Assembly: GCA_040390725.1 (NCBI GenBank)
Contig: JAZJXT010000001.1
Coordinates: 152,586 to 216,585, forward strand
Reading direction: 5' to 3'
Length of the DNA: 64,000 bases
Source of the DNA: Patescibacteria group bacterium
GTDB lineage: Bacteria; Patescibacteriota; Minisyncoccia; Phycocordibacterales; UBA9973
The first letter of the stretch is position 1; each line of letters begins with the position of its first letter. The notes under the pieces are model-generated. The model was not told where the DNA came from. It made no database searches and worked only from the letters and a program-made list of their open reading frames with translations. Positions 22,007 through 44,803 of this stretch are shown one piece after another. Made by a program: the position numbers and the translations under genes.

Positions 22007-22083
22007 TTTCTGCTAGACTGGAAGTGTTCTTTAATTAGTAAAGAAACATTCGGGAGTAGCTCAGCGGTAGAGCGATCGCCTGT

Positions 22084-22646: not shown

Positions 22647-22691
22647 TAAGCGATTGGTCGTAGGTTCGATCCCTACCTCCCGAGCCAGTTA

Positions 22692-29104: not shown

Positions 29105-29455
29105 ATGTCAGAATTTAAAATATTTCAAGTTGAACGTCCGTGGGGGAATTTCCGGCAATATAATCACAATAGCCCTTGTACGGTAAAAATAATCACAGTT
29201 AAGCCGAATGAAATCTTGAGTTTGCAAAGCCATCAAAAGCGTGCGGAATTTTGGCATGTGCTTTCAGGGGACGGTACGATTCAAATAAATGAAAATAAAT
29301 ACGAGGTTAAAGACGGCGACGAGTATCATATTCCAATAGGCGCAAAACACAGAATGTCTGGGGGTTCTTCCGGTCTTGAAATTTTAGAAATTTCCACTGG
29401 TGATTTTGATGAAGCAGATGTAGTTCGTTATGAAGATAAATATGGCAGGTCTTAA
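29105..29455 (+). CDS. Cupin-domain protein (mannose-6-phosphate isomerase type II C-terminal-like)
   Basis: RPWGNFRQY...LSLQSHQKRAEFWHVLSGDGTIQIN matches the ManC/PMI cupin signature. Confidence 0.65.
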   Translation: MSEFKIFQVERPWGNFRQYNHNSPCTVKIITVKPNEILSLQSHQKRAEFWHVLSGDGTIQINENKYEVKDGDEYHIPIGAKHRMSGGSSGLEILEISTGDFDEADVVRYEDKYGRS

Positions 29456-29458
29456 ATT

Positions 29459-30617
29459 TATGGCAAAAACTTCCGTAAAAAAAGTAACTAAAAAAGTTGT
29501 AAAAAAAGTTGCACAAACTAAGATAAAAACTCGTGCCAAAAAGATTGTTAGAAAATTAATTAAAAAAACAACAAATAAAAAACCTGTAAAAAAAGTTGTA
29601 AAAAAACCATCTCCAGTAAAACTCGAAAGAGCAAAACATAATCCTATAATAAAACCGCGAATGTATTCATGGGAATCAAAAGCTACGTTTAATCCCACGG
29701 CATTTTTGGACGGCAGTGATGTGCATATTGTCTACAGGGCAATAGGGGAGAGTGACTCTTCGGTATTGGGGTATGCTCTTTCTCATGATGGCTACCATAT
29801 CCTCGAGAGACCAACTTATTTTATTTATAAACGTTTTTCGGATCTTTCTCCAGTGGGCGAGCCGATTGATTATATTTCTGGCGGAGGATGGAGTGGAGGC
29901 TGTGAAGATCCACGCATTACTAGGATAGGTGATATGGTATACATGCTTTATACTGCTTTTGATGGGTGGGGTTCGGTACGTATTGCTTTTACTTCGATGC
30001 CTCTTGAAAATTTTAAGAAAAAGAAATGGCATTGGAAAAAACCGGTTTTTATTTCTCCACCGGGGAAGGTACAGAAAAATTGGGTTTTATTTCCAGAAAA
30101 AATAAATGGGAAATACGCAATATTGCATAGCATGTCGCCTAGAGTTATGATTGCTTATTTTGATAGCTTGGATGAATTGAATGGTAAAAAATTTATAGAA
30201 AGTTTTCGAAAAGTAGATCCGGAATGGCAAAATTCTTGGGATACATGGGTACGAGGTATCGGTCCTGCACCTATTAAAACAAAACTCGGCTGGCTCTTGC
30301 TTTATCACGCAATGGACAAAAATGATCCTGACAGATACAAGCTCGGTGCGATAATCACGGACATAAAAGATCCGACAAGAATTTTATATCATTCCGATAA
30401 TCCTATCTTGGAGCCGGATGAGCATTATGAGAATCATGGACATGCGCATGGAGTTGTTTATTGTTGCGGAGCAATAGTAAAAGATAAAAAACTTTTTGTG
30501 TATTATGGCGGAGCGGATAAGTATACATGCGTAGCATCTGTGTCGCTCGAAGAACTTTTAGAAGATTTGCAAACTGGAAAAGTTGCGAAGTTAAATAAAT
30601 TAAAAAAGAAAAAATAA
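29459..30617 (+). CDS. Glycoside hydrolase family 130 (DUF377) protein with a Lys-rich N-terminal tail
   Basis: HNPIIKP..WESKATFNPTAFLDG..VHIVYRAIG and GGCEDPRITRIG are GH130 phosphorylase/hydrolase hallmarks. Confidence 0.65.
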
Positions 30618-30618
30618 T

Positions 30619-32547
30619 ATGTACGTAGTAAAAAGATTAGAAGAAAATCCGATTTTAGCGCCAAATGGAGACCGGTATTGGGAAGCATTTGCTACTTTTA
30701 ATCTTTGCCCTGTAAGGCATGGTAAATATATTTATGGATTGTTTAGAGCCATTTCCGCTGTGGATACGTTGCAGACTCCTCGTCAGATGTCTGTTATTGG
30801 AATAGGGAAAAGTAAAGACGGCGTGCATTTTGAAGATAGAGTGCCATTTATAATTCCGGAAGAAGAATGGGAACAATTCGGTTGCGAAGACCCAAGAGTT
30901 ACTTTTTTTGAGGGAACTTTCTACACTTTTTACACAGCACTTTCAAAATATCCTTTTGGCGCTGAAGGCATCAAGGTGGCTGTCGCTCTTTCTCGAGACT
31001 TAAAAACAGTTTATGAAAAGCATTTCGTTACACCCTTTAATGCCAAAGCCATGACTCTTTTTCCGGAGAGGGTAAATGGTAAAGTCACAGTTATTTTTTC
31101 TGCCCATACTGATTCTCCTCCTGCAAAAATGGTAATAGCGCAAGTAAATAAAATTGAAGAGTTATGGGACAATAAATTTTGGGAAAAGTGGGAAGAAAAA
31201 ATTGACGAGCATACAATTGATCCTCGCAGAAATGAATATGACCACGTAGAAGTCGGAGCTACTCCAATAAAAACAAAGCATGGTTGGCTTTTAATTTATT
31301 CGCATATTCAAAATTATTTTCGTTCACCGGAAAATCTCGATAGAATTTTTGGCGTCTCAGCTTTGTTGCTTGATTTGAATGATCCTAAGAAAATAATCGG
31401 TCGCACTCGCGGGCCATTACTAGTACCACAGGAGACATATGAGCTTTCCGGAGATATTCCCGATGTTATTTTTCCAAGCGGAACATTGATAGAAAAGGAT
31501 ACCCTTACTATATACTACGGCGCCGCGGACACTACGGTGTGTTCGGCGCGAGTTAATCTGACAGACTTGATTTCCAGCATGAGCTTGGAGCATTCTGATA
31601 AATGGCATTTTTTGCGAGCGAAAGAAAATCCGATTATAATTCCAAAAATAGAACATTCGTGGGAAGCGCAGGGGACTCTGAATCCGGCGGCAATTTTACT
31701 GAAAGGCAAAACTCATATTTTATATAGAGCTTTTTCTTCGGACAATACTTCGAATATCGGGTATGCAGTATCTGATGATGGTATAAATATCACAGAAAGA
31801 TTAGCGGAGCCAATATACGTACCACGTGAGGATTTTGAAAGTAAAAAAATAAATAATGGATATTCTGGTTGTGAAGATCCTCGTCTGACGAAAATCGGTA
31901 AAAATATTTATATGTGTTACACGGCATTTGATAGCGTGGGGCCTCCACGTGTGGCGATAACATCTATTACCGAGAAAGACTTTTTGGCGCGCAACTGGAA
32001 ATGGGAAAAACCATTTTTAATTACACCGGAAGGTTTTGATGACAAAGACACATGTCTTTTCCCTGATAAATTTAAGCAAGGTTATTTTATTTTACATCGT
32101 GTGGGTGATGAAATTTGTGGAGATTATTTAAAGTCTCTTGATTTTAAGAGTGAAATTATTAGAAAATGTATTCATGTTTTAGGCCCGAGACGGAATGCTT
32201 GGGATAGCGCCAAAGTCGGTATTACTGCTCCACCCATAAAAACAAAATACGGCTGGCTTTTATTGTATCACGGTGTTTCAAAAAGCCACGGTACATATCG
32301 TGTAGGGGCGGTATTGCTCGATTTGAAAGATCCGGCGATAGTTTTATCACGTAGCACTGATCCTATTTTTGAGCCGGAAATGGAATATGAAAAAGTTGGT
32401 TTTGTGAAAAATGTTGTTTTTCCTTGTGGAATGACCGAAAAAAATGGGATTTTGTATATATATTATGGTGGGGCTGATAAGGTAGTGGGTGTAGCTACTA
32501 TGGATCTCAATATTATCTTAAAAGCCTTGTTAAATGGGATTAAATAG
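30619..32547 (+). CDS. Tandem double GH130 (DUF377) domain protein
   Basis: Two copies of ENPI..P....WEA.ATFN..., FGCEDPRVT / SGCEDPRLT and YIYYGGAD. Confidence 0.65.
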   Translation: MYVVKRLEENPILAPNGDRYWEAFATFNLCPVRHGKYIYGLFRAISAVDTLQTPRQMSVIGIGKSKDGVHFEDRVPFIIPEEEWEQFGCEDPRVTFFEGTFYTFYTALSKYPFGAEGIKVAVALSRDLKTVYEKHFVTPFNAKAMTLFPERVNGKVTVIFSAHTDSPPAKMVIAQVNKIEELWDNKFWEKWEEKIDEHTIDPRRNEYDHVEVGATPIKTKHGWLLIYSHIQNYFRSPENLDRIFGVSALLLDLNDPKKIIGRTRGPLLVPQETYELSGDIPDVIFPSGTLIEKDTLTIYYGAADTTVCSARVNLTDLISSMSLEHSDKWHFLRAKENPIIIPKIEHSWEAQGTLNPAAILLKGKTHILYRAFSSDNTSNIGYAVSDDGINITERLAEPIYVPREDFESKKINNGYSGCEDPRLTKIGKNIYMCYTAFDSVGPPRVAITSITEKDFLARNWKWEKPFLITPEGFDDKDTCLFPDKFKQGYFILHRVGDEICGDYLKSLDFKSEIIRKCIHVLGPRRNAWDSAKVGITAPPIKTKYGWLLLYHGVSKSHGTYRVGAVLLDLKDPAIVLSRSTDPIFEPEMEYEKVGFVKNVVFPCGMTEKNGILYIYYGGADKVVGVATMDLNIILKALLNGIK

Positions 32548-34063: not shown

Positions 34064-34954
34064 ATGAATAAAGTAAATAAAAAAGTTCAAAATTTAATAG
34101 ACTTGAAAAAGACTTTTGATTCTCTTAAAAAGGGTAAGGAGTCTCTTTTGGCTGTTTTAGGTGAAGTGGAGCTTGCTGAGTCGGTTTATAACTCAAATGC
34201 TATTGAGAATAGTACTTTAACTCTTCCTGATACAGAAAAAATACTTCTGGATTTAGAAGTTTCAAAAGATTATTCACTTCGCGAAGTTTTTGAGGCAAAG
34301 AATTTAGCTCGCGTATATGAATATGTAAAAAATAAAAAAGATAATATTGTCTTAAATCAAGACACGCTTCTTTTTATCCACGGTTTACTTATTGGTGGTA
34401 TTGATGATTCTATCGCCGGCAGATTCAGAAAAGCTCATGAATTTGTGAGAGTGGGTAAACATATCGCGCCTGCTCCGGAGCATATCATGCGCATGATAGA
34501 AGTTTTAATAAATGAATATAAAACAAATCATGATTTAAATATTTTTAAAAAAATAGCGTATTTTCATTTACAATTTGAAACAATTCACCCGTTTTGTGAC
34601 GGCAATGGACGTATTGGTCGCGTTCTTATAAACTTACAGCTTCAAGAGTTCGGTTATCCGAATATAATTATTCGTGACAAAGAAAAGAAAATTTATTATA
34701 AAACCTTTTCACAATTTAGAGATGAAAAATCCACGAAGCAAATGGAGCAAGTAATATATTTATCTCTTTCAGAAAGTTTAAATAAAAGAATTGCATATTT
34801 ACAAGGAAAAGAAATTATAACTTTAGCCGAGTATTCAAAAGATAAATCTTTATCTTTGGCTGGACTTATAAACTCCGGCAGGCGTCAGACTATTCCTGCA
34901 TTTCGTGAAAAAGGTGTTTGGAAAATCAGCAATAGCTATGTCGTGGAAAAATAA
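34064..34954 (+). CDS. Fic family protein (AMPylase type) with an N-terminal inhibitory motif
   Basis: Fic motif HPFCDGNGRIGR, plus S-x-x-x-E-N (SNAIEN) in the N-terminal helix. Confidence 0.85.
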   Translation: MNKVNKKVQNLIDLKKTFDSLKKGKESLLAVLGEVELAESVYNSNAIENSTLTLPDTEKILLDLEVSKDYSLREVFEAKNLARVYEYVKNKKDNIVLNQDTLLFIHGLLIGGIDDSIAGRFRKAHEFVRVGKHIAPAPEHIMRMIEVLINEYKTNHDLNIFKKIAYFHLQFETIHPFCDGNGRIGRVLINLQLQEFGYPNIIIRDKEKKIYYKTFSQFRDEKSTKQMEQVIYLSLSESLNKRIAYLQGKEIITLAEYSKDKSLSLAGLINSGRRQTIPAFREKGVWKISNSYVVEK

Positions 34955-35239
34955 ATGAGCTACTACGCAGATAAAGGGAATAAATATCCGCAAAATCCTG
35001 AATTAGTTTTGGACTTTCACGGCTACACGACGATGGAGTGCAAAGAAGAACTCGATGAGCTTATTGGAAATAGTGAATACTCGCATATCCGCATCATCGT
35101 AGGCAAAGGGCAAAATAGCGCAAACGGACCCATCCTCCCAGACTTTGTCCGCAATTATCTCACAACCCGCAACATCCGCTTTAATCAATCCAAAATTCAA
35201 GCCGGCGGCGCAGGTGCCTTGGAGGTGTTTTTGGATTAG
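34955..35239 (+). CDS. Smr domain protein
   Basis: LDFHGYT..E....L...IG..EY.HIRIIVGKGQNS fits the Smr pattern. The start abuts the Fic stop (TAAATG). Confidence 0.6.
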   Translation: MSYYADKGNKYPQNPELVLDFHGYTTMECKEELDELIGNSEYSHIRIIVGKGQNSANGPILPDFVRNYLTTRNIRFNQSKIQAGGAGALEVFLD

Positions 35240-35277
35240 AATTTTTTTAAAAAATGATGTAGAATCTATAAGTTATA

Positions 35278-37985
35278 TGATAAGCCTTAATGAAATTAAA
35301 AATCGAGCAGTTACTTTTTCAAAAGAGTGGGAACGCGAAGTAAGTGAAGATGCAGAAGCTAAAAGCTTTTGGGATGGATTTTTTGATGTGTTTGGTATGT
35401 CTCGTCGCCGCGTGGCTTCTTTTGAGCATCAAGTAAAAAAGCGTGATGGCTCTCAAGGATATATAGATGTATTTTGGAAGGGTGTAATGCTTGCCGAACA
35501 TAAATCTCGCGGTAAAAGCTTGGATAAAGCATTTACTCAAGCAAAAGATTATTTTCCTGGACTTAAGGAAGATGAATTACCAAGATATGTAATAGTTTCA
35601 GATTTTGAAAAAATTAGAGTTTATGATTTAGATAAAGAAACTGAAAAAGAATTTTCACTAGGGGATCTTTCAAAGAATATAGATTTATTTGATTTTATTT
35701 CTGGACATAATTCTATTGTTGATTATGCAAAAGAAGAAATGGCAAGCATTAAAGTTGCTCGCCTTATGGCTGATTTTCATAATGAAATTGCTAAGACGGG
35801 TTATTCTGGGCATGATTTAGAAGTATTTTTGATTAGAATTTTATTTTGTCTTTTTGCAGATGATACTGAAATTTTTCCAAAAAATAGTTTTAAAAATTAC
35901 ATAGAAACTAAGACAAATATAGACGGCTCTGACTTAGGTTTACACTTAGGTCAAATTTTTGATGTTTTAAATACTCCAAATAATAAACGACAAACAAATT
36001 TAGATGAACAGTTAAAGCAATTTCCGTATATCAATGGTGGAATTTTTTCTGAACAGATACGCCCAGTATCTCTTGATGCCGGAGCACGCTTGAAACTCAT
36101 AATATGTTGTAATGCTGATTGGTCAGAAATATCCGCTTCAATTTTCGGATCTTTGTTTCAGGGTGTTATGAATGAAAAGGAGAGACGACAGCTTGGTGCG
36201 CATTATACATCTGAAGCCAATATTTTAAAACTCATACACCCTCTTTTTCTTGATGAGCTTTATATAGAATTCGATGAAGTAAAATATGATATAAAAAAGT
36301 TAGATATTTTCCATAAGAAACTTACCACGTTAACTTTCTTAGATCCCGCCTGTGGTTGTGGTAATTTTTTGGTGGTGGCATACAGAGAACTTCGTAAATT
36401 AGAACTCGAGGTTTTGAAACGAAAAGATAAAATAGGTCAAATGATGCTTTTGGGTGCGCAAGATTTATCTATTGTAAATGTGAATCAATTTTATGGCATA
36501 GAGATAGAAGAATTCCCGACGCTTGTCGCTCGCGTAGCTATGTATTTAGTTGACCATCAAATGAACACGGAACTTTCAAAAACATTTGGGCACGTGTATG
36601 CTCGTATTCCGCTACGTGAACCGGCAAGTATAGTAAATGATGATGCTCTTACTACTGATTGGGAAAGTGTTGTTCCAAAAAATAAACTTTCTTATATTCT
36701 TGGTAACCCACCATTTATAGGTAGTAAATTAATGTCTGAACAGCAACGAAAAAATCTTATTGCTTGTTTTGATAATAATGATGGTGTAGGTGTTCTTGAT
36801 TTTGTTACAGCGTGGTATGCAAAGGCTGCAAAATATATTAATGATACCGATATAAAAGTTGCTTTTGTTTCCACGAATTCTATATCACAAGGTGAACAAG
36901 TTGGTATACTTTGGAGCTATTTAAATACTTTTAAGATTGAAATTCAATTTGCCCATCAAACTTTCAAGTGGAATAATGATGCACCGGGCGTCGCTGCTGT
37001 TTTTTGTGTAATTATTGGTTTTAGTAATAAAAATAAAAATGAAAAATATCTTTATGAGTATGAAAATGTAAAATCTGAACCGAAAGAAAGCATGGTGTCT
37101 CATCTTAATGCCTATTTAGTAAAAGGAGATGATGTTTTTATAAAAAAAAGATCAAAACCTATATGTGAAGTGCCTGAAATGAGTTTCGGCAATATGCCTC
37201 TTGATGGTGGTAATTTATTGTTTACAAATTCAGAAAAGGAAGAATTTATACTGAATGAACCAGGGGCAGAAAAATTTATTCGTCCACTTATTAGTGCAAA
37301 AGAATTTTTGAATAATGAAAAACGGTGGTGTTTATGGCTTGTAGGAGTAGAACCACAAAAATTAAGAGAAATGTCTTTGGTATTAGAACGAATTCAAAAA
37401 GTAAAAGAATTTCGTGAAGCAAGTGTTGCACCTTCTACTAAAAAATTTGCATCAATTCCAAGCCTTTTTAGAGATAAAAATAATCCGGATTCTACTATTG
37501 TTATTCCTAGAGTTTCTTCAGAAAATAGAAAATATATACCTATGGGATTTTTTACTAAAGAATCAATTGTAAGTGATACTTGTATGTCTTTACCAAATGG
37601 AAATTTGTATCATTTCGGAATTTTAGAATCAGATATGCATATGATATGGGTTAATTATACTTGTGGAAGATTAAAAAGTGATTATCGCTATTCAAAAGAT
37701 ATTGTTTATAATAATTTTCCTTGGCCGGAATTTAAAGAAGTTGTTTTAACAAATGAAGCTAAATTCAAAGTTTCTGAATGCGCGCAAGCTGTTCTTGACG
37801 CAAGGGCTAGGTTTCCAAATAGCTCACTTGCGGATTTGTATGATTCGAATACTATGCCACCGGATTTAGTAGAAGCACATAATAATCTAGATAGGGCAGT
37901 GGATGCCTGTTATGGTAGAAAGTTTAAAAACAAAGAGGAGAGAATAGAATTTTTGTTTGAGTTGTATAAGGTGTATACTAAATGA
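35278..37985 (+). CDS. MmeI-family Type IIL (IIG) restriction-modification enzyme (endonuclease plus N6-adenine methyltransferase plus TRD in one polypeptide)
   Basis: The N-terminus FSKEWERE..AKSFWDGFFDVFGMSRRRVASFEHQVKK...LPRYVIVSDFEKIRVYDL closely parallels MmeI. MTase motif I is LDPACGCGNFLVVAYRELR and motif IV is ILGNPPFIGS. The track start 35145 is rejected. Confidence 0.85.
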
Positions 37986-37986
37986 T

Positions 37987-38208
37987 ATGGAAACAAGAAT
38001 GAATTTCAATGAAATATTTAATACTCACGTAGACGGTTCTATTGAACCGCGTCGTCTAATTCAAGTTGGGGGAGTATCTTTTGGTCCAGGTGTTAGATTT
38101 AATAGAGGTGTTTCTTTTTCAGGAATAGATTTTTCTCTTTTTATAGGTAGGGAGTTTCAAGTTAGAGATGAAAATGGAGTAATAAATATACTAGGTGTTT
38201 TTCAATAA
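37987..38208 (+). CDS. Hypothetical small protein (74 aa)
   Basis: ORF starting METRMNFNEIF immediately after the RM gene stop. Confidence 0.35.
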   Translation: METRMNFNEIFNTHVDGSIEPRRLIQVGGVSFGPGVRFNRGVSFSGIDFSLFIGREFQVRDENGVINILGVFQ

Positions 38209-38214
38209 ATTTTT

Positions 38215-38553
38215 ATGTCAAAATCACAAGAACAACCTGAATTTAAGATTAATGAGTTAAGGATAATTTCTGAGGCAGTTAATCAATCAAAAGATTATGC
38301 AAAATCTTATTCTGATGATAAAGTAAAAAATATTAATTGGTTAATGGCTGGTGTTGTTATTGTTTGCTTACTTGGTTTCTTGCAATTAATTATTGATTCT
38401 TTTCATATAAATTCTGCAACTTATAAGGAGTATTCTCAAAAAACTGAAGAGATAGAAACTACACAAAAAATTAATAAAGAGTTATTAGATAAAAATATTA
38501 AAAATCAAGAAATTATAATTGACTTACTACGGAAACAATCTTTTAAAGAATAA
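38215..38553 (+). CDS. Hypothetical membrane/coiled-coil protein
   Basis: 112 aa with a central TM (NWLMAGVVIVCLLGFLQLII) flanked by charged helical segments. Confidence 0.4.
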   Translation: MSKSQEQPEFKINELRIISEAVNQSKDYAKSYSDDKVKNINWLMAGVVIVCLLGFLQLIIDSFHINSATYKEYSQKTEEIETTQKINKELLDKNIKNQEIIIDLLRKQSFKE

Positions 38554-38583
38554 TATAATGGTAAAAAAAGATGAAAAAATTGT

Positions 38584-39426
38584 ATGAAAATAGAAATCAT
38601 ACAATCGCTTGTAAATAATTTTGAATCTTATGCCAAAAAAACTGAAGAAGGTGTGGAATTTTGGCTTGCTAGAGATTTGCAACAACTTTTAGGATATGAC
38701 AAGTGGGATAATTTTTTGAATGTGATTTCAAAAGCTAAAATTGCTTGCGAAAATACAGGACACAATACTTCTGATCATTTTGCCGACGCTGGGAAAATGA
38801 TAGATTTAGGTAAGGGGGCACAAAGAGAAGTCTCAGATATAATGCTTACGAGATATGCTTGCTATTTGATTGCTCAAAATGGTGATCCAAGAAAAGAGGA
38901 AATTGCTTTTGCTCAGAACTATTTTGCACTTCAAACTAGGAAATTTGAAATTATTGAAAAAAGAATTCAAGAGTTTGAAAGAGTGAAGGCACGTCACAAA
39001 CTTTCTGAAACAGAAAAAGAATTATCTAGTGTTATTTTTCAACAAACTCGTAGCGATAAAAATTTCGCTCTAATTCGCAGTAAGGGAGATAAGGCTCTTT
39101 TTGGATACGGAACAAGTGAAATGAAATTGAAATTAGGTGTTCCTCAAGGTAGAGCCCTTTCTGATTTTCAACCAACTATTCTTTTGAAAGCAAAAGATTT
39201 TGCAACAGAAATTACAATTTTTAATACAAAAGCAAAAAATTTAAGAACAGAACAGTCGATTTCAGACGAACATATTATAAACAACAGGAGTGTTCGAAAA
39301 ACACTCCTGTCTCGTGGTATTAGACCTGAAAGTTTACCAAAAGAAGAAGATATTAAAAAAGTAGAACGAAAATTGTCATCTGATGAAAAGAAAAATTTAA
39401 AGAAACCAGATAAGCTTAAAAAATAA
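38584..39426 (+). CDS. DNA-damage-inducible protein D (DinD) homologue
   Basis: EFWLARDLQQLLGYDKWDNF..SDHFADAGKMIDLGKGAQREVSDIMLTRYACYLIAQNGDPRKEEIAFAQNYFALQTRK aligns by eye with the E. coli DinD N-terminal half. Confidence 0.7.
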   Translation: MKIEIIQSLVNNFESYAKKTEEGVEFWLARDLQQLLGYDKWDNFLNVISKAKIACENTGHNTSDHFADAGKMIDLGKGAQREVSDIMLTRYACYLIAQNGDPRKEEIAFAQNYFALQTRKFEIIEKRIQEFERVKARHKLSETEKELSSVIFQQTRSDKNFALIRSKGDKALFGYGTSEMKLKLGVPQGRALSDFQPTILLKAKDFATEITIFNTKAKNLRTEQSISDEHIINNRSVRKTLLSRGIRPESLPKEEDIKKVERKLSSDEKKNLKKPDKLKK

Positions 39427-39481
39427 TATTAAAATAGATTTACATAAAATAAAAAAGTCAAAGTTATCCATAAGTATTATT

Positions 39482-40030
39482 ATGCAAACCCTCAAACAAC
39501 TAAACGGACTTTTTTATCGGGTGCGGAATACGGCGCGGGGGAGGAAAGTTTTGATAAGTATTGCGGGGGATGGGGCGGTGAATGTATCGAAAGGCTCGCG
39601 GGTGAGTTTGGAAAGTGTGGAGAAAATAATGCGGGAGAAGTTTGATTGGATTATGAGCAAGGTGTCGGAGCAGAAGGCTAAACCGCAGAAAATATTGGCG
39701 CATTATTCGGTGAAGGATTTCAGGGAGAATAAGAATCGGGCGCATGTACTAGTACGTGATAGGTTGGAATTTTTTAATAAATTCTATGGTTATAAAATAG
39801 GGAGGGTGAGCATACGCAATCAAAAATCGCGCTGGGGAAGCTGTTCCGGAAAAGGAAATTTGAGTTTTAATTACAAAATAGTTTTCTTGCCTCTCGAGCT
39901 CGCTGACTACATAATAGTGCACGAGCTTTGCCATTTAAAAGAGATGAATCATTCCGTAAAATTCTGGTCCCTCGTCGCCGAACAAATCCCGGATTATAAG
40001 CAGAGAAGAAAATCCATAAAATTATATTAA
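39482..40030 (+). CDS. DUF45 / YgjP-like zinc metallopeptidase (M48/WLM-like)
   Basis: ..YKIVFLPLELADYIIVHELCHLKEMNHS..FW contains an HExxH zinc-binding motif in the YgjP family context. The 5' half of the gene is conspicuously G-rich. Confidence 0.65.
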   Translation: MQTLKQLNGLFYRVRNTARGRKVLISIAGDGAVNVSKGSRVSLESVEKIMREKFDWIMSKVSEQKAKPQKILAHYSVKDFRENKNRAHVLVRDRLEFFNKFYGYKIGRVSIRNQKSRWGSCSGKGNLSFNYKIVFLPLELADYIIVHELCHLKEMNHSVKFWSLVAEQIPDYKQRRKSIKLY

Positions 40031-40057
40031 AATTTCGGCAGTAATGTTTTTTAATTT

Positions 40058-40088
40058 ACTTATTCGTACGAATAGGTAAATGGAGGTT
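40058..40088. promoter_or_regulatory. Palindromic operator-like site 1 (TATTCGTACGAATA plus GGTAAATGG) upstream of the ArsR-family gene
   Basis: A perfect 14-bp palindrome read directly; the same extended motif occurs at two other sites. Confidence 0.55.
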
Positions 40089-40108
40089 TTAGTGATATTA
40101 TTATATAT

Positions 40109-40369
40109 ATGAAAGATCATGAAAAAATATTAAAGGCTTTGGCAAATCATCGGCGTTTAAAGATTTTAAAATATCTTAGGGATAAAAAAATTGCTTCAGT
40201 GTCTATTCTTGCTGAACATTTGAATTTATCCTTTAAATCAACATCAAAACATCTTGCCGTATTATTCGGAGCGGGGATTGTGGAAAAAGAACAAAAGAAT
40301 CTTTCTATGCTTTATTCACTAGCGAATCCTTTGCCAAAAGTTGCAAAACAAGTTATTGGGCTTATTTAA
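40109..40369 (+). CDS. ArsR/SmtB family winged-helix transcriptional regulator
   Basis: LKALANHRRLKILKYL....ASVSILAEHLNLSFKSTSKHLAVLFGAGIV. Confidence 0.7.
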   Translation: MKDHEKILKALANHRRLKILKYLRDKKIASVSILAEHLNLSFKSTSKHLAVLFGAGIVEKEQKNLSMLYSLANPLPKVAKQVIGLI

Positions 40370-40404
40370 GATAATCATATTTATTTGGGTTTTAGTTGTA
40401 TTTA

Positions 40405-40435
40405 CCTATTCGTACGAATAGGTGTATGGTAAATA
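40405..40435. promoter_or_regulatory. Palindromic operator-like site 2 (CCTATTCGTACGAATAGG plus TGTATGGTAAATA)
   Basis: Perfect 18-bp palindrome between the ArsR gene and the downstream small-ORF operon. Confidence 0.55.
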
Positions 40436-40490
40436 CATTATCAGAAAAAGAGTCTCAAGTGTGCTGGACTGATACATTAGCTTGACGTGC

Positions 40491-40506
40491 AGAGAGAGAG
40501 AGAGAG
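40491..40506. repeat. (AG)8 dinucleotide microsatellite in the 5' region of the 40547 operon
   Basis: agagagagagagagag read directly. Confidence 0.8.
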
Positions 40507-40546
40507 TAATATTAGCCTATTACAAATTAGGCTTTATTTTAATTTT

Positions 40547-40699
40547 ATGACAGACGAAGAAATAAAAAATCTCACTCAAAAGGTGAAAGATGGCACAGCG
40601 ACACCCGAAGAAGAGCTTTCGTTCTTGCAAATCTTGAACGAATCTCTGGAAGGTCTTCAGGCTATTATTACACAAGCTAAATTGGCGAAAGCCGAATAA
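40547..40699 (+). CDS. Hypothetical small protein (50 aa)
   Basis: MTDEEIKNLTQKVKDG...; the track start 40487 lies inside the (AG)n tract and is rejected. Confidence 0.35.
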   Translation: MTDEEIKNLTQKVKDGTATPEEELSFLQILNESLEGLQAIITQAKLAKAE

Positions 40700-40703
40700 T
40701 TTT

Positions 40704-41174
40704 ATGAGAGAACTATTTGGACAAGAAAAAGCTATTTTAAAGAAATCTCCTGAGGAACAAACCCCAGACGAAATACGGTATTTAGCAATTATTGAAGATG
40801 CAAATAAGGCAAATATTAATATTGAAAAATTAAAACAACAAATTATTGATGCTGGTGGTCCAGAGGCTGTAGAAGAAAAATTCGGTGGTGGATATGGAGA
40901 TCATATTGTAAAAACAAAGTTAGAAAATTCAGATTATTTCGAAAAAGTTAGAAATTGGTTGATTCCAGTATCAACAATAGCATTAGTTTTAGCTGGTGGA
41001 AATGAGGCATCCAGAAATCCAGAGGGTGTGCCGTCTTTACTTGAAGCTTTAACGTTTATCTTAGGTAGCGGTGGAATGCTTAGTGGAGTACTTGCTGAAA
41101 TTGAAAGACGTGCTTCTAAGAAAACAGCAATGGAGACAGACATTAAAATGCGGATGGTTGAGGTGAAAGAATAA
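40704..41174 (+). CDS. Hypothetical protein
   Basis: ORF of 156 aa with a C-terminal hydrophobic segment. Confidence 0.4.
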   Translation: MRELFGQEKAILKKSPEEQTPDEIRYLAIIEDANKANINIEKLKQQIIDAGGPEAVEEKFGGGYGDHIVKTKLENSDYFEKVRNWLIPVSTIALVLAGGNEASRNPEGVPSLLEALTFILGSGGMLSGVLAEIERRASKKTAMETDIKMRMVEVKE

Positions 41175-41233
41175 AAACATTAGTAAAATTACTAATAGTA
41201 TTTTAGGGTTAAAATAATATTTTTATAAATCTT

Positions 41234-41398
41234 ATGACCAAAGAAGAACAAGTCAAAAAAATAAAGGAAATAATGCAAAAAACTTTAGCTAAGTTGAATG
41301 ATTTAAAATTGAAACACAAAAATGCTATGAAAGCGTATTTAGAAGAAAAAAGACAAAACAAAATAAACTCGATTAAAAAAGATTTATTATCAAAATAA
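41234..41398 (+). CDS. Hypothetical small coiled-coil protein (54 aa)
   Basis: MTKEEQVKKIKEIMQKTLAKLNDLKLKHKNAMKAYLEEKRQ... fills the gap between annotated ORFs and is not in the track (under 60 aa). Confidence 0.3.
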   Translation: MTKEEQVKKIKEIMQKTLAKLNDLKLKHKNAMKAYLEEKRQNKINSIKKDLLSK

Positions 41399-41412
41399 TT
41401 ATTAAAAAATTT

Positions 41413-42588
41413 ATGGGAAATGAAAGGTTTAATCAAATACAATCATTACAAGAACAAGGCGGGGAAGATGCCATTAAAAAGCTTCAGGAAATTCAAACAG
41501 AAGCTGAACTTGGTTTTGAAGGAGACGTAGAAAAAGCCGCAGCTGATGCAATTGAGGCGATAAATAATGCAGGAAAGGCAACAACAGAAGGAATAGAAAA
41601 CGAAGCTCAAAATACTGCCAATAAGGCAGAATCTATGGGTGGAACAACACAAGAAGTTAATGAAGTTTCTGGGCCTATTGAAAATGAAGTTAGTGGTGCA
41701 GTTGAGACTGGCAATGAAGAAGTTGTATCTGTGAATACATCAAAGGATGCAGAAGTTGACGGAGAGCATCAACTTGAAAGTAAAAAACAGGAAAAGTTTA
41801 ATCAATTTCAAAAATGGTTTGATGAAGAATCTAAGAAAAAATCAGAAAATCCAGAAAGTTTGGTTAATAGAATATCAAAATCATCTGAAGGGTATAAAGA
41901 AATATTAAATGAGCAAATAAATAATCTTAGTACTAGTTCATCTGATTATAATTTAAAAAATAAATTTAATACAACACGTGAAGAGTTGGAGTTATCATTA
42001 CCTGAATTATACCAAAAGGGAGTGCTCTCAGAGGATAGATATGCATACTATATTAAAATGCAATCTCTAGATGGGAATAATTTACAGATTCAAAAGTTAA
42101 ATCAATTTGTGGAAAATACTCCTTCAGAAGTACTCAATAAACTTAGAAGTAAAGATCAGAACTTAAAGTCACTTCTTGATAATTGGAACGAATCAATTAG
42201 TAAAGAAATTGGTAAGGAATTAGGTAATAAAACAGAATTAAATTCTGGGACAGAAACTTTTCGTGAGCCGGAAAAATTATTAAACTTAGTTTCTAGCGCA
42301 GCGCGTTTTCAAAATAAAGATAAGGTGAAGGAAACTGTTGCAAAAGTTGTAGATGCATATTTAACGTCAAGTAGTAATTTAGGTAAAATTAGGAGTAAAC
42401 AAGATACTTTTCCTGTTTTAGAAAATTTATGTCAAGCAGGATTTTCTGATCAGGCTTTAAAAATAGCAGAAAAAGGAATTACGCAGGGGAGTCTTGGCTA
42501 TAGCGCTATTTTTCAGCTTAAGCAAAAGGGGTATATTTCTGAAGTTCAAGCTAAAGATCTTTTGGAAAAAGTTGGAAAATTAAATTAA
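41413..42588 (+). CDS. Hypothetical protein with an acidic disordered N-terminus and a helical C-terminal domain
   Basis: ORF of 391 aa with no known motif. Confidence 0.4.
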   Translation: MGNERFNQIQSLQEQGGEDAIKKLQEIQTEAELGFEGDVEKAAADAIEAINNAGKATTEGIENEAQNTANKAESMGGTTQEVNEVSGPIENEVSGAVETGNEEVVSVNTSKDAEVDGEHQLESKKQEKFNQFQKWFDEESKKKSENPESLVNRISKSSEGYKEILNEQINNLSTSSSDYNLKNKFNTTREELELSLPELYQKGVLSEDRYAYYIKMQSLDGNNLQIQKLNQFVENTPSEVLNKLRSKDQNLKSLLDNWNESISKEIGKELGNKTELNSGTETFREPEKLLNLVSSAARFQNKDKVKETVAKVVDAYLTSSSNLGKIRSKQDTFPVLENLCQAGFSDQALKIAEKGITQGSLGYSAIFQLKQKGYISEVQAKDLLEKVGKLN

Positions 42589-42622
42589 AATCTTGAGGAA
42601 AAAATAGAAAGTTAATTATGTT

Positions 42623-42655
42623 CTTATTCGTACGAATAGGTAAATGGTAAATAAG
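42623..42655. promoter_or_regulatory. Palindromic operator-like site 3 (TTATTCGTACGAATAGG plus TAAATGGTAAATA) upstream of ychF
   Basis: Same motif as sites 1 and 2, about 50 bp upstream of the ychF start. Confidence 0.55.
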
Positions 42656-42702
42656 AAAAAAGTAAATTTTGAAAATCTGCACATTTCTGCTATATTTTAG
42701 CA

Positions 42703-43704
42703 ATGTCATTAAGTATAGGAATTGTGGGGTTACCGAACGTGGGGAAGTCCACGCTTTTTAATGCGCTGACTAAGAAGGGGGTGCCGGCGGAGAATTATCC
42801 TTTTTGTACTATTGATCCGTCTGTGGGCATTGTGCCTGTGCCGGATGAACGCGTGGGCAAGCTTGCTGACTTTTCTAAAACAAAAAAAACAATTCCGGCG
42901 GTGATAGAATTTGTGGATATTGCGGGGCTCGTCGCGGGAGCTTCCAAGGGTGAAGGCTTGGGTAATAAATTTCTTTCAAATATTCGCGAAGTGGATGCGA
43001 TACTGGAAGTCGTGCGCGTGTTTGAAGATAAAGACATCATTCACGTGGCGAACAAAGTGGACCCGCTCCAAGATATTTCTGTGATAAATCTGGAACTCAT
43101 TTTAGCTGATTTGGAAACTGTGACAAAAAGACTTTTGAATATTAATCGCGAGGTGAAACGAGGCGATAAAGAATCCGTCGCAGAAGATGCCGTTTTGAGA
43201 AAAGTGGAAAAAGTTTTAGGGGATTCGAAGATGGCAAATTCTTTAGAACTTGATCCGAAGGAACAAGAAATTTTAAAAAGCATGCATTTACTTTCTGCCA
43301 AGCCGATACTATATGCGCTCAATGCTTCGGAAGTCGCGGAGAATGTGATTGAAAAAGTGGCGCAAAATATTCCGGGGAAATATGTCGTCATCGATGCCGT
43401 GTTTGAAAAAGGTTTTGATGAAATGATACGAGCGAGTTATGACTTGCTCGGGCTGGAAACATTTTTAACAACTGGAGTCGAAGAAACTCGCGCGTGGACT
43501 ATAAAAAAAGGAAGTACTGCACCGATAGCCGGCACTGCGATACATACGGATTTTAAAGATAAATTTATCCGCGCGGAAGTTGTGGCTTGTGATGATTTAC
43601 TCGAAGCTGGTTCATACGCCGAAGCTCGCGCCAAAGGCAAAGTCCGTACCGAAGGCAAGGAATATATAGTCAAAGATGGGGATGTGATTGAGTTTAAGAT
43701 ATAA
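42703..43704 (+). CDS. ychF: Ribosome-binding ATPase YchF
   Basis: GIVGLPNVGKSTLFNALT, ..FVDIAGLV.GAS.GEGLGN.FL, and a TGS-like C-terminus (..VKDGDVIEFKI). Locally GC-rich. Confidence 0.9.
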   Translation: MSLSIGIVGLPNVGKSTLFNALTKKGVPAENYPFCTIDPSVGIVPVPDERVGKLADFSKTKKTIPAVIEFVDIAGLVAGASKGEGLGNKFLSNIREVDAILEVVRVFEDKDIIHVANKVDPLQDISVINLELILADLETVTKRLLNINREVKRGDKESVAEDAVLRKVEKVLGDSKMANSLELDPKEQEILKSMHLLSAKPILYALNASEVAENVIEKVAQNIPGKYVVIDAVFEKGFDEMIRASYDLLGLETFLTTGVEETRAWTIKKGSTAPIAGTAIHTDFKDKFIRAEVVACDDLLEAGSYAEARAKGKVRTEGKEYIVKDGDVIEFKI

Positions 43705-43705
43705 A

Positions 43706-44803
43706 ATGTTTAAAAAAGTATTTTTATTTTATTTGAGTTATCTGGTGGCGTTGACTTATAGTCAGACGCTTTTGATGCTTTGGTTTTTAACCAACGGAGT
43801 TTCTTATTTGCAGATGTTATTTTATTTCTTAGTTCTTTATGTGTCGGTCTTGGTGACATTTTTTTTACTGCGCAATATAAATTTCTCCAGCAAGTTTGCT
43901 CTTGTTTTTGGGGTGACGACGAGCGCCTTGGGGGTATTGGTGGCTAATTTTATGACACAGCCTGCACATATATTTATCACGGCAATTTTGTTTGGTTTCA
44001 ATATCGTTTTCTTTTGGACAATATACAATTCTCTTCATTTTAAATACAGCCAGAGTAATGAGAATGGATACAAAAGTGGAGCGTACTTTTTATTTATGCC
44101 GATATTTTCCGCAGTGCTTGCGCCCCTGGCTGGCTTTGTGGCGACGAAGCTAGGCTATCACTTTTTATTTTTAAGCGGAATTGTTCTGTATATTTTGCCT
44201 TTTTATTTTGCTTTTCATATGCCGAAGTTTGATTTTAAATTTAATTTCATAAATTCAGCTCGTAATATGGAGAACAAATTATTGATTGCATTTCAAGGGT
44301 ATAATGAAATGTTGAGTTATAACATCGTGCCCATATTTACTTTATTTTTTATAAATACGCCTGGCAAGCTCGGCAATTTCTTTGGCTATTTGGCTATACT
44401 TTCCGCAGTCACGGCTTTTTTAAATTCTAAAATTTCCGACAAGTTTAAAAATCGTAAGTTATTTTTTTATTTATTTATCAGCTTGCATTCTCTGAGTTAC
44501 ATACCGCTCGCGCTTGTAAATTCGTTGGCAGGATGGAGAATATTTGCCGGTATCAGTAATTTTACTTTTGGACTAGCGAATCCGTTTAATTTAGCTCTTG
44601 CCGTGGATCATGCAAAAGGGGAAACAGTAGACACAATGCTCGGCAGGGAGATTTATTTGAATTCCGGAAGAGTGGTGATGATTTTGGTTGCGCTTACTGT
44701 ATTTTTCTTTTCTCATTCTTTGAAGGTGGCATTGTTATTAAGTGTCTTGGCCTCATTGCTTTACCCAGTAGTTGCTTATTTTAAAAAAGTTTATTTAAAA
44801 TAA
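43706..44803 (+). CDS. Polytopic membrane protein (possible transporter)
   Basis: About 10-12 predicted TM helices; no diagnostic motif. Confidence 0.4.
   Translation: MFKKVFLFYLSYLVALTYSQTLLMLWFLTNGVSYLQMLFYFLVLYVSVLVTFFLLRNINFSSKFALVFGVTTSALGVLVANFMTQPAHIFITAILFGFNIVFFWTIYNSLHFKYSQSNENGYKSGAYFLFMPIFSAVLAPLAGFVATKLGYHFLFLSGIVLYILPFYFAFHMPKFDFKFNFINSARNMENKLLIAFQGYNEMLSYNIVPIFTLFFINTPGKLGNFFGYLAILSAVTAFLNSKISDKFKNRKLFFYLFISLHSLSYIPLALVNSLAGWRIFAGISNFTFGLANPFNLALAVDHAKGETVDTMLGREIYLNSGRVVMILVALTVFFFSHSLKVALLLSVLASLLYPVVAYFKKVYLK

What the first reader, a model, noticed from the sequence alone, without database searches (positions are those of the whole stretch)
40058..42655. Conserved 14-18 bp palindrome (TATTCGTACGAATA) at three sites, marking a putative ArsR-family regulon that includes ychF
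The perfect palindrome, with a conserved downstream extension GGT(A/G)(A/T)ATGG(T/A)AAATA, occurs 35 bp upstream of the ArsR-like gene, between that gene and a four-ORF operon of unknown small proteins (40547-42588), and about 50 bp upstream of ychF. Three copies of a motif about 30 nt long within 2.6 kb cannot be chance. The obvious hypothesis is an autoregulated ArsR/SmtB-type repressor whose operator also controls the unknown operon and the ribosome-associated ATPase YchF. Alternatively the conserved extension is a shared promoter and the palindrome is its operator. An (AG)8 microsatellite sits just downstream of site 2 in the operon's leader.
Basis: seen in the sequence. Interest (0 to 1): 0.55.

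Follow-up and report, generated by a model that had tools for sequence, protein, structure and literature searches.

The report
Operator sites of a Patescibacteria ArsR-type regulator
The three palindromes are very probably the DNA-binding sites of the small ArsR-family regulator encoded next to them, a regulator-plus-site pair conserved across the uncultivated Patescibacteria, but the proposed link to ychF is peculiar to this one genome and probably incidental.

Summary
TATTCGTACGAATA occurs exactly three times in the window (40061, 40407, 42625). A 32-bp matrix scores only these three sites.

The palindrome is the core of a roughly 32-bp symmetric site, TATTnnCnwATTCG-YR-CGAATwnGnnAATA. In 80 Patescibacteria genomes this site flanks homologues of the 86-aa ArsR-like gene on both sides (67 of 76 genes).

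A recognition-helix residue (K or R) co-varies with the central four bases of the site. This ties the protein to the site.

Site 1 occupies the -35 slot of the regulator's own leaderless, extended -10 promoter, with its centre near -41.5. That supports autoregulation, most likely repression.

Site 2 is the usual 3' partner of the pair. Site 3 is an extra copy specific to this genome.

Six close relatives keep the ychF promoter but have no palindrome and no ArsR gene nearby. The four-ORF block is an orphan. Sites 2 and 3 lie about 71 bp upstream of the predicted transcription starts and do not overlap those promoters. A regulon that includes ychF is therefore not supported as a conserved feature.

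The protein has no metal ligands. It is a new, undescribed member of a familiar kind. The constant 3' site remains unexplained.

The parts
40052..40083 (.). Site 1: 32-bp symmetric operator (core palindrome 40061-40074, centre 40067/40068). It covers the -35 slot of the regulator's own promoter.
   Evidence: Exact core. Matrix score 36.8 bits. Same position as in 74 homologous loci.
40093..40101 (+). Extended -10 box TGaTATTAT of the ArsR-like gene. It is followed by 7 nt and then the ATG, which implies a leaderless mRNA. The hexamer starts 29 nt from the site centre.
   Evidence: The hexamer starts at exactly +29 in 32 arms, against a background of 1.4 per position. Leaderless gene starts are the rule in this window.
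40109..40369 (+). 86-aa ArsR/SmtB-family winged-helix regulator of K type (recognition helix LSFKSTSKHL). It has no Cys and no metal-ligand motif.
   Evidence: Pfam HTH_5 39.2 bits, cut-off 22. NCBIfam NF033788 63.7 bits, cut-off 55. Profile match to HlyU in the PDB at 6e-14. Family alignment.
40398..40429 (.). Site 2: the 3' partner of the bracketing pair (core 40407-40420, centre 44 nt after the stop codon).
   Evidence: Matrix score 36.3 bits. A 3' site is present in 67 of 76 homologues, 5-76 nt after the stop codon.
40470..40478 (+). Predicted extended -10 box TGaTACATT, a candidate promoter of the four-ORF block. Its hexamer starts 60 nt from the centre of site 2.
   Evidence: Consensus match only, no transcript data.
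40482..40512 (+). TTGACG, then a 19-nt spacer, then TAATAT. The spacer holds (AG)8 at 40491-40506. This is an alternative, mis-spaced promoter-like element.
   Evidence: Read from the sequence. (AG)8 located. The repeat count is the same in the one other assembly, L001.
40514..40533 (+). Terminator-like hairpin AGCCTA...TAGGCT followed by TTATTTT, just before the first ORF.
   Evidence: The fold is not better than shuffles, z = -0.84.
40547..42588 (+). Four ORFs (50, 156, 54 and 391 aa) of unknown function: a lineage-specific accessory block lying between sites 2 and 3.
   Evidence: No Pfam, PHROGs or NCBIfam family above threshold. No homologue in 150 related loci. The 391-aa protein has one homologue (48% identity) among 5.8 billion proteins, and no palindrome flanks that homologue.
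42616..42647 (.). Site 3: an extra copy of the operator (core 42625-42638), at the junction between the ArsR-side block and the conserved ychF neighbourhood.
   Evidence: Matrix score 38.2 bits. Absent upstream of ychF in six close relatives.
42669..42696 (+). ychF promoter: TTGAAA, 16 nt, then TGcTATATT. Six nt separate it from the ATG, implying a leaderless mRNA. The -10 hexamer starts 60 nt from the centre of site 3.
   Evidence: Best promoter match in the region. TTTCTGCTATATT is conserved in 4 of 6 relatives.
42703..43704 (+). ychF (ribosome-associated ATPase). It is a neighbour of site 3, not a conserved target.
   Evidence: Pfam YchF-GTPase_C and MMR_HSR1. Synteny downstream of ychF is conserved while the upstream side varies.

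Best explanation
The three palindromes are DNA operators for the 86-aa ArsR/SmtB-family winged-helix protein encoded at 40109-40369. This protein is a minimal member of the family, HlyU-like, with no metal-binding site. The full site is about 32 bp and symmetric. Each half has an inner block CGAAT and an outer block G..AATA, and the two halves meet at a flexible pyrimidine-purine centre. Site 1 lies over the -35 slot of the regulator's own promoter, which has an extended -10 box and produces a leaderless mRNA. The site centre is near -41.5. The protein therefore controls its own synthesis, most likely by repression. Site 2 is the second member of a pair that brackets the regulator gene in most Patescibacteria, regardless of what lies downstream. 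Site 3 is an additional copy specific to this genome. Sites 2 and 3 sit about 71 bp upstream of the predicted starts of the four-ORF block and of ychF. They may modulate those genes or block read-through into them, but that step is inferred, and for ychF it is not conserved. Shown here: the sites, their conservation, their position relative to consensus promoter elements, and their co-variation with the protein. Inferred: binding itself, the sign of regulation, and the input signal, which is unknown.
For: (1) In 80 genome loci holding a homologue (804 kb), the exact core ATTCGNNCGAAT occurs 170 times against 1-2 expected by chance. 75 of the 80 loci have it, and the centre is pyrimidine-purine in 160 of 170 sites. 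(2) 67 of 76 homologous genes carry a site on both sides. (3) Proteins with K in the helix motif STS[K/R]H have symmetric centres GTAC or GCGC at 69 of 77 sites. Proteins with R have GCAC, GTGC or GTGA at 51 of 60 sites (Fisher p = 1e-19 per site and 1e-12 per locus). The K/R state switches about 15 times on a neighbour-joining tree and the centre type follows it. Genomes with two paralogues have one of each type. (4) The extended -10 hexamer of the ArsR genes starts exactly 29 nt from the site centre in 32 cases, against a background of 1.4 per position. It is followed by 6-7 nt and then the ATG. In other lineages the -10 box lies inside the outer arm of the site. Leaderless starts are the norm in this window. 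(5) Only the three sites score in the 64-kb window. 100 kb from close relatives holds one site, so the motif is low-copy as expected of a regulon. (6) The protein passes the Pfam and NCBIfam ArsR cut-offs and matches HlyU, CzrA, PagR and NolR among solved structures. (7) The site is not part of the ArsR transcript if transcription starts at the ATG, which argues for a DNA-level role.
Against: There is no binding or expression data; every point is comparative. The K/R correlation is not corrected for phylogeny beyond a parsimony count on a noisy tree of a short protein. About half of the sites found without reference to ArsR (64 of 115) are not next to an ArsR gene. These orphan sites occur in co-directional, convergent and divergent intergenic regions in background proportions, which a pure promoter-operator model does not predict. 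The 3' site is equally frequent when the next gene is convergent (14 of 72). The asymmetric centres of the R type are odd for a homodimer. A centre at -41.5 is also the classical position of an activator, so the sign of regulation is open. Sites 2 and 3 do not overlap any predicted promoter.
Confidence: 0.75

Rival explanations
1. Boundary or roadblock element. The regulator, bound at sites flanking its own gene and at other intergenic sites, acts mainly as a protein roadblock or insulator. It stops read-through between transcription units in a compact genome with few intrinsic terminators. On this view sites 2 and 3 delimit the four-ORF block rather than control its promoter or that of ychF. 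This can coexist with autoregulation at site 1.
For: The 3' site is present in 67 of 76 homologues, whether the next gene is co-directional (58) or convergent (14). Orphan sites are not depleted in convergent intergenic regions: 12 of 71 against a background of 14%. In 18 loci the site centre is 5 nt past the stop codon, so the stop codon lies inside the site. The distance from the 3' site to the next gene's start is broad, 12-293 nt, unlike the tight spacing upstream of ArsR. Arrays of the form site-gene(s)-site occur in several loci as well as in the window.
Against: There is no direct evidence of transcription blockage. The gene calls behind the intergenic classes are crude. The sites could equally be weak or decaying operators. 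Roadblock function of ArsR-type proteins is not established knowledge.
Confidence: 0.2
2. The protein is an activator rather than a repressor. On this view it acts in class II fashion at its own promoter (centre -41.5) and in class I fashion at the four-ORF block and ychF (centre -71.5).
For: The spacing to an extended -10 box that lacks a -35 element is exactly +29 in 32 cases. Secondary clusters at +49/50 and +60 are roughly in helical phase with +29. Both window sites 2 and 3 sit at exactly +60. The closest solved relative, HlyU, is named a transcriptional activator.
Against: In other lineages the -10 box lies inside the operator arm (+9) or at +17, +20 or +22. These positions are out of phase and imply occlusion. 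A cluster at +66/67 is also out of phase. ychF relatives keep the same promoter without any site, so that promoter does not depend on an activator.
Confidence: 0.2
3. One reading: the conserved extension GGTAAATGG(T/A)AAATA is a shared promoter and the palindrome is its operator.
For: In other genomes, upstream of a family of about 580-aa zinc-ribbon proteins, the arms TTGTCT and TAAATA sit 16 nt apart and the ATG follows 7-9 nt later. There the site itself could be the promoter.
Against: In the window, clear extended -10 boxes lie 15-45 nt beyond the extension. The extension occurs on both arms of the site across the phylum, as a symmetric outer block. The base at the position that would be the essential second A of a -10 box is variable.
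Confidence: 0.1
4. RNA-level hairpin: a terminator, a processing signal or a stability element at the ends of transcripts.
For: The sites lie 30-45 nt after stop codons as well as before starts. They fold as hairpins of -8 to -11 kcal/mol, z = -2 to -3.9. Some sites in relatives are perfect 38-bp palindromes, for example in L008.
Against: The outward flanks are A-rich, not T-rich, so the arrangement is T-rich/stem/A-rich, the reverse of an intrinsic terminator. The terminator scan did not call them. Arm complementarity within a site (8.4 of 16) barely exceeds that between different sites of the same locus (7.75 of 16). The loop and stem sequence is invariant across a phylum, and the centre is constrained to pyrimidine-purine steps. 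No Rfam family matches. The upstream site lies outside a leaderless ArsR transcript.
Confidence: 0.05
5. Dispersed mobile palindromic repeat (REP- or MITE-like), or a recombination site that bounds gene cassettes.
For: The site is a palindrome of about 32 bp found in intergenic regions of all types. The neighbouring genes vary: 76 singleton families among the targets. The window's three copies share 31 nt including the right arm, which suggests local duplication. An accessory block lies between two copies.
Against: Copy number is low: 3 in 64 kb, all at the ArsR gene, and 1 in 100 kb of relatives. No transposase or recombinase is consistently nearby. The orientation of asymmetric centres at the two flanks is random, about 9 inverted and 10 direct. 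The homologue of the four-ORF block elsewhere is not flanked by the site. Neither the site family nor the protein family is present in viral contigs: one 18-mer hit and no protein hits.
Confidence: 0.05

Closest known systems
Autoregulated ArsR/SmtB repressors with '12-2-12' inverted-repeat operators (SmtB, CzrA, CadC)
   Same: Same protein family by sequence. The operator is a long inverted repeat with a 2-bp centre, an inner block and an outer AT-rich block, placed over the regulator's own promoter. The comparison of operator architecture rests on my recollection of the 12-2-12 consensus, not on a test here.
   Different: No metal ligands at all, only 86 aa, a different and longer site (about 15-2-15), a leaderless extended -10 promoter, and a second operator 3' of the gene in about 88% of homologues. 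To my knowledge the 3' operator is not a feature of those systems.
HlyU of Vibrio (PDB 4k2e, 3jth)
   Same: Closest solved relative (E = 6e-14). A small ArsR-type protein that does not sense metals.
   Different: HlyU is described as an activator or anti-silencer of toxin genes. Nothing here shows activation, and the target sequences and gene contexts are unrelated.
Non-metal ArsR-like autorepressors SdpR, PagR and NolR
   Same: The second-best NCBIfam hit is the SdpR autorepressor family, and PagR and NolR match in the PDB. From memory, NolR tolerates asymmetric operators, which parallels the R-type centres.
   Different: Scores fall below those families' cut-offs (SdpR 44.7 against 100 bits), so this protein is not a member. 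The regulons differ.
REP/BIME-type intergenic palindromes
   Same: Palindromes of about 30-35 bp in intergenic regions, including between convergent genes.
   Different: Low copy number, tied to one regulator gene, co-varying with that protein's recognition helix, and positioned precisely over a promoter.

Membership tests
ArsR/SmtB family of winged-helix regulators | Sequence match to the family models above the curated cut-offs | tested here: met
   Pfam PF01022 HTH_5 39.2 bits (cut-off 22). NCBIfam NF033788 63.7 bits (cut-off 55). Profile hits to HlyU, YgaV, CzrA, PagR, NolR and CadC.
ArsR/SmtB family of winged-helix regulators | Fold of helices a1-a2-a3-aR, a beta-hairpin wing and helix a5 | tested here: inconclusive
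   AlphaFold2 model with mean pLDDT 76.7. Residues 1-54 (helices including the recognition helix) are confident; the wing and C-terminus score 51-61 and were modelled as helix. Foldseek against the PDB gave no match at E <= 0.001. Generic winged-helix domains, including HlyU, CzrA and CadC, appeared at E = 0.15-1.
ArsR/SmtB family of winged-helix regulators | Inverted-repeat operator at the regulator's own promoter (autoregulation) | tested here: met
   A site lies upstream of 74 homologous genes, at fixed spacing to the -10 box. Binding itself cannot be tested with these tools.
Metal-sensing ArsR/SmtB metalloregulators | Metal ligands: a CxC motif in helix a3 (a3/a3N site) or Asp/His/Glu ligands in helix a5 | tested here: not met
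   The alignment of 25 homologues has no Cys. The only invariant His lies in the recognition helix. The C-terminal helix has no DxH...H..E pattern.
SdpR-family autorepressors | Score above the NCBIfam NF033789 cut-off | tested here: not met
   44.7 bits against a cut-off of 100.
Intrinsic (Rho-independent) terminators | G+C-rich stem followed by a T run | tested here: not met
   The terminator scan did not call the sites. The flank 3' of the stem is A-rich.
REP/MITE-type dispersed repeats | Many copies dispersed through the genome | tested here: not met
   Three copies in 64 kb, all at the ArsR locus. One copy in about 100 kb from six relatives. A whole genome was not available.
REP/MITE-type dispersed repeats | Associated RAYT or other transposase, and target-site duplications | not tested
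   No transposase family appeared among 85 neighbouring proteins. No systematic search was made.
Integron-like cassette arrays | Integrase gene and attC-type sites bounding single-gene cassettes | tested here: not met
   No integrase among the neighbours. The blocks between sites hold one to four genes. The sites are near-perfect palindromes lacking the asymmetry of attC.
Known RNA families (Rfam 15) | Match to a covariance model | tested here: not met
   No match at the gathering threshold. Only two chance-level matches (E = 0.27 and 0.4) elsewhere in 39950-42760.

The most novel reading that the evidence does not exclude
The small ArsR-like protein may be more than a local autoregulator. It may act as a sequence-specific boundary protein. 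Operators bracket its own gene in about 88% of homologues, fill the gaps between tandem paralogues, and occur between convergent genes. On this reading they serve as protein-dependent roadblocks or insulators that define transcription units in leaderless, terminator-poor Patescibacteria genomes. Sites 2 and 3 of the window would then fence off a newly acquired four-ORF block.
Probability: 0.15. Interest if true: 0.75.

Novelty: new member of a known kind. Interest (0 to 1): 0.5.

Why it matters
Almost nothing is known about transcriptional control in Patescibacteria (the Candidate Phyla Radiation), which cannot be grown alone and encode very few regulators. This work yields a regulator-operator pair that is conserved across many classes of the group. 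It comes with a defined 32-bp motif, a predicted specificity-determining residue (K or R against the central bases), and a defined promoter geometry on leaderless genes. Each of these can be tested directly in vitro or in a heterologous host. The pair also gives a handle for reading regulons in metagenome-assembled genomes. For this window in particular, the analysis removes an attractive but unsupported link between a stress-type regulator and the ribosome-associated ATPase YchF.

Tried and rejected
- **DNA looping between the two flanking sites.** The 67 centre-to-centre distances (279-432 bp) show no helical periodicity (Rayleigh p = 0.16-0.97 for periods of 10-11.5 bp).
- **Hairpin co-variation.** Arms of the same site are only slightly more complementary than arms of different sites in the same locus.
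- **A conserved functional theme among target genes.** 85 neighbouring proteins fall into 75 Pfam families. The largest is Ser_hydrolase with six members.
- **A palindrome upstream of ychF orthologues.** Absent in all six relatives examined.
- **Homologues of the four ORFs.** None in 150 loci. The 391-aa protein has one distant homologue, which has no flanking site.
- **Phase variation at (AG)8.** The only other assembly of this region, L001, is identical, so there is no evidence either way.
- **Phage origin.** No homologue of the regulator in viral contigs, and one 18-mer hit, which is within chance. PHROGs hits are confined to the upstream Bro-N and YgjP genes.
- **Structure-based assignment.** The model is mediocre in the wing and Foldseek found nothing significant. 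The top, non-significant hits were Z-alpha domains. Together with the alternating pyrimidine-purine centre CG-YR-CG this is a curiosity, but the Z-alpha contact residues are not evident, so I do not pursue it.
- **Literature.** Five full-text searches found no description of this motif or this regulator subfamily. The library does not hold most subscription journals.
- **Resemblance to CIRCE.** The arms in Doudnabacteria (GAGTGCT...AGCACTC) resemble CIRCE, but they are in the wrong order. I judged this coincidental.
Full report
**Observation**

The 14-mer TATTCGTACGAATA is present exactly at 40061, 40407 and 42625. It occurs nowhere else in the 64-kb window, even with two mismatches, and no shuffle reached three matches. 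With three mismatches only chance-level hits appear. The three copies share C.TATTCGTACGAATAGGT..ATGG.

- a YgjP-like gene ending at 40030
- an 86-aa HTH_5/ArsR protein (40109-40369)
- four ORFs without any family (40547-42588)
- YchF (42703-43704)

(AG)8 is at 40491-40506. The distance from site 3 to the ychF ATG is 64 nt rather than about 50.

**What the motif is**

The ArsR-like protein belongs to an 86-aa family widespread in Patescibacteria. I fetched 80 genome loci around homologues. In these 804 kb the core ATTCGNNCGAAT occurs 170 times, against one or two expected by chance. It is present in 75 of the 80 loci, and the centre is a pyrimidine-purine step in 160 of 170 cases.

The maps show one architecture almost everywhere: site, regulator gene, site. 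With the slightly relaxed core ATTC....GAAT, 67 of 76 genes have a site on both sides.

Read outward from the centre, each half-site is R-C-G-A-A-T-w-r-G-n-s-A-A-T-A-r. The whole element is therefore about 32 bp. The same block occurs on the left arm of site 2 as ATTTACC.

A matrix built from 227 such sites scores the three window sites at 36-38 bits and nothing else above -3.4. The best of 50 shuffles scored 7.6.

**Link between protein and site**

Loci that lacked the exact core have a variant, ATTC-GTGA/TCAC-GAAT, at the same places. Sorting the loci by one residue of the recognition helix (STS-K-H or STS-R-H) gives a sharp split:

- K proteins have symmetric centres GTAC or GCGC at 69 of 77 sites.
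- R proteins have GCAC, GTGC or GTGA at 51 of 60 sites.

Fisher's test gives p = 1e-19 per site and 1e-12 per locus. On a neighbour-joining tree the K/R state changes about 15 times and the centre type follows. Genomes with two paralogues carry one of each type.

The tree of so short a protein is noisy, and the test is not corrected for phylogeny. Even so, repeated correlated switches are what direct recognition predicts. They are the strongest computational evidence that this protein binds this site.

**Promoter geometry**

Upstream of the regulator genes there is an extended -10 box (TGnTAnnnT), followed by 6-7 nt and the ATG. The hexamer starts exactly 29 nt from the site centre in 32 arms, against a background of 1.4 per position. 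In the window the box is TGATATTAT at 40093-40101.

Most genes of the window have a -10 box 5-9 nt before the ATG and no Shine-Dalgarno sequence. Leaderless transcription is therefore the rule here.

It follows that site 1 lies at about -57 to -25 (centre -41.5), over the -35 slot, and outside the transcript. In other lineages the -10 box lies inside the outer arm (+9) or at +17 to +22. Those positions are out of helical phase with +29. This favours occlusion, that is repression, over face-specific activation. A centre at -41.5 is nonetheless also the class II activator position, so I leave the sign at roughly two to one for repression.

**The 3' site and site 3**

The site after the stop codon is present whether the next gene is co-directional (58 cases) or convergent (14 cases). 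That is the background ratio. In 18 loci the site centre is only 5 nt past the stop codon, so the stop codon lies within the site. Its distance to the next gene's start is broad, 12-293 nt. Site 2 of the window is this standard partner.

The genes beside the sites are heterogeneous. They comprise 76 singleton clusters and 75 Pfam families, and YchF appears only in the window.

I then looked up six close relatives through their YchF proteins (83-89% identity). All share the downstream synteny with the window. Four share the promoter TTTCTGCTATATT. None has the palindrome or an ArsR gene nearby.

The four ORFs have no homologue in any fetched locus. The 391-aa protein has a single 48%-identical homologue among 5.8 billion proteins, and no palindrome lies on the 1.7-kb contig that carries it.

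In relatives L012 and L017 the GH130 gene pair (window 29430-32547) directly precedes the regulator. In the window, about 7.5 kb separate the GH130 pair from the regulator, most of it a Fic, Smr, MmeI-type restriction-modification, Bro-N and YgjP island. The regulator thus sits in a rearranged, accessory neighbourhood, and site 3 marks its junction with the conserved ychF block.

Sites 2 and 3 both lie exactly 60 nt (centre to hexamer) upstream of extended -10 boxes: TGATACATT at 40470-40478 and TGCTATATT at 42688-42696. Neither site overlaps a promoter. The equal spacing may be coincidence, a local duplication (the two sites share 31 nt), or a class I-like geometry. I cannot decide between these.

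**Sites away from the regulator**

A metagenome scan for the exact 21-mer TATTCGTACGAATAGGTAAAT returned 71 loci holding 115 core sites. Of these, 51 are within 150 bp of a homologue and 64 are not.

A recurrent non-ArsR context is a tandem array of about 580-aa multi-zinc-ribbon paralogues with no family assignment. There the site fills the roughly 40-nt gap between genes, with the ATG 23-25 nt from the centre. That protein family is absent from the window.

Orphan sites are spread over co-directional, convergent and divergent intergenic regions in background proportions: 49/12/10 against 839/168/163. Density is low: none in the remaining 61 kb of the window and one in 100 kb from relatives. 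This fits a small regulon, not a high-copy repeat. The sites between convergent genes are not explained by promoter control, however, and they motivate the roadblock/insulator rival.

**Rivals tested**

- Terminator or RNA hairpin. The outward flanks are A-rich, the scan does not call the sites, arm complementarity is mostly shared motif, and Rfam has nothing.
- Looping. There is no helical phasing between the two flanking sites.
- Mobile repeat or recombination site. Copy number is low, no recombinase is nearby, the orientation of asymmetric centres is random, and the family is absent from viral contigs.

**Family membership**

The protein passes the Pfam and NCBIfam ArsR/SmtB cut-offs. Its nearest solved relatives are HlyU, Lmo1102, YgaV, CzrA, PagR and NolR. 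It has no Cys and none of the metal-ligand patterns, so metal sensing is not expected and the input signal is unknown. The AlphaFold2 model is confident only for residues 1-54, and the fold search was not informative.

**Comparison and novelty**

In kind this is an autoregulated ArsR-type regulator with an inverted-repeat operator, which is ordinary. Five literature searches found no description of this subfamily or its motif, with the caveat that the library is incomplete. Several features appear to be undescribed:

- conservation of the pair across the phylum
- the operator sequence itself
- the K/R specificity switch
- the leaderless promoter geometry
- the constant 3' operator

I file it as a new member of a known kind. 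There is a modest chance that the bracketing sites reflect a boundary function, which would be more novel.

**Verdict**

Interest 0.5.

Noticed in passing
window 22052-22688: A tRNA gene appears to be split by a group I intron. The 5' half, GGGAGTAGCTCAGCGGTAGAGCGATCGCCT, ends just before 22082. The Rfam Intron_gpI match covers 22369-22639. The 3' half, with T-arm GGTTCGATCC and the acceptor end, lies around 22650-22688. ORF 22082-22429 overlaps the intron core and may be a homing endonuclease. ARAGORN did not call this tRNA.
   Followed up: partly
window 34064-40030: An accessory, defence-type island: Fic (34064-34954), Smr (34955-35239), an MmeI-type restriction-modification enzyme (35145-37985), a Bro-N/phrog_8036 protein (38584-39426) and a YgjP-like metallopeptidase (39482-40030). 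It lies between the GH130 gene pair and the regulator. In relatives L012 and L017 the GH130 pair directly abuts the regulator.
   Followed up: partly
whole window: Most genes have a -10 box (often TGn-extended) 5-9 nt before the ATG, and very few have a Shine-Dalgarno sequence. The organism seems to rely largely on leaderless mRNAs.
   Followed up: partly
window 40482-40533: (AG)8 lies inside a 19-nt spacer between TTGACG and TAATAT. Losing one AG unit would give the optimal 17 nt, an arrangement typical of phase-variable promoters. A terminator-like hairpin follows immediately. The only other assembly of this region has the same repeat count.
   Followed up: partly
L085:1155, L095:3078, L119:3094, L121:11910, L138:1114, L140:3655, L150:11072, L047:9735 and others: Tandem arrays of about 580-aa paralogues occur in other Patescibacteria. 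These proteins have an N-terminal CxxC...F.IEPEDF.FY motif and a C-terminal YCE.CYQQEV motif, and no Pfam, NCBIfam or PDB match. The palindrome fills each intergenic gap of about 40 nt. This is the one recurrent target besides the regulator itself. The protein family is absent from the window.
   Followed up: partly
L002/L030, L023/L032, L043/L067 (pairs of loci from the same MAG): Single genomes carry two paralogous regulators, one K type and one R type. Each is flanked by sites with its own centre type, as if the change in specificity prevents cross-talk.
   Followed up: partly
L154:6549: A good copy of the site (ATTCGCGCGAAT with AAGCGCAT arm) lies inside the called miaA-like (IPPT) gene of a close relative, rather than in an intergenic region.
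   Followed up: no
window 43688-44803: The ORF after ychF (371 aa, weak MFS match below the Pfam cut-off) is called with a TTG start that overlaps the last 17 nt of ychF. Relatives have other genes (SET, an ABC transporter or small ORFs) at this position.
   Followed up: no
window 40067/40068 and related sites: The central hexamer CG-YR-CG alternates pyrimidine and purine. The top Foldseek hits of the protein model, though not significant, were Z-DNA-binding Z-alpha domains. This is probably meaningless but was not excluded.
   Followed up: no
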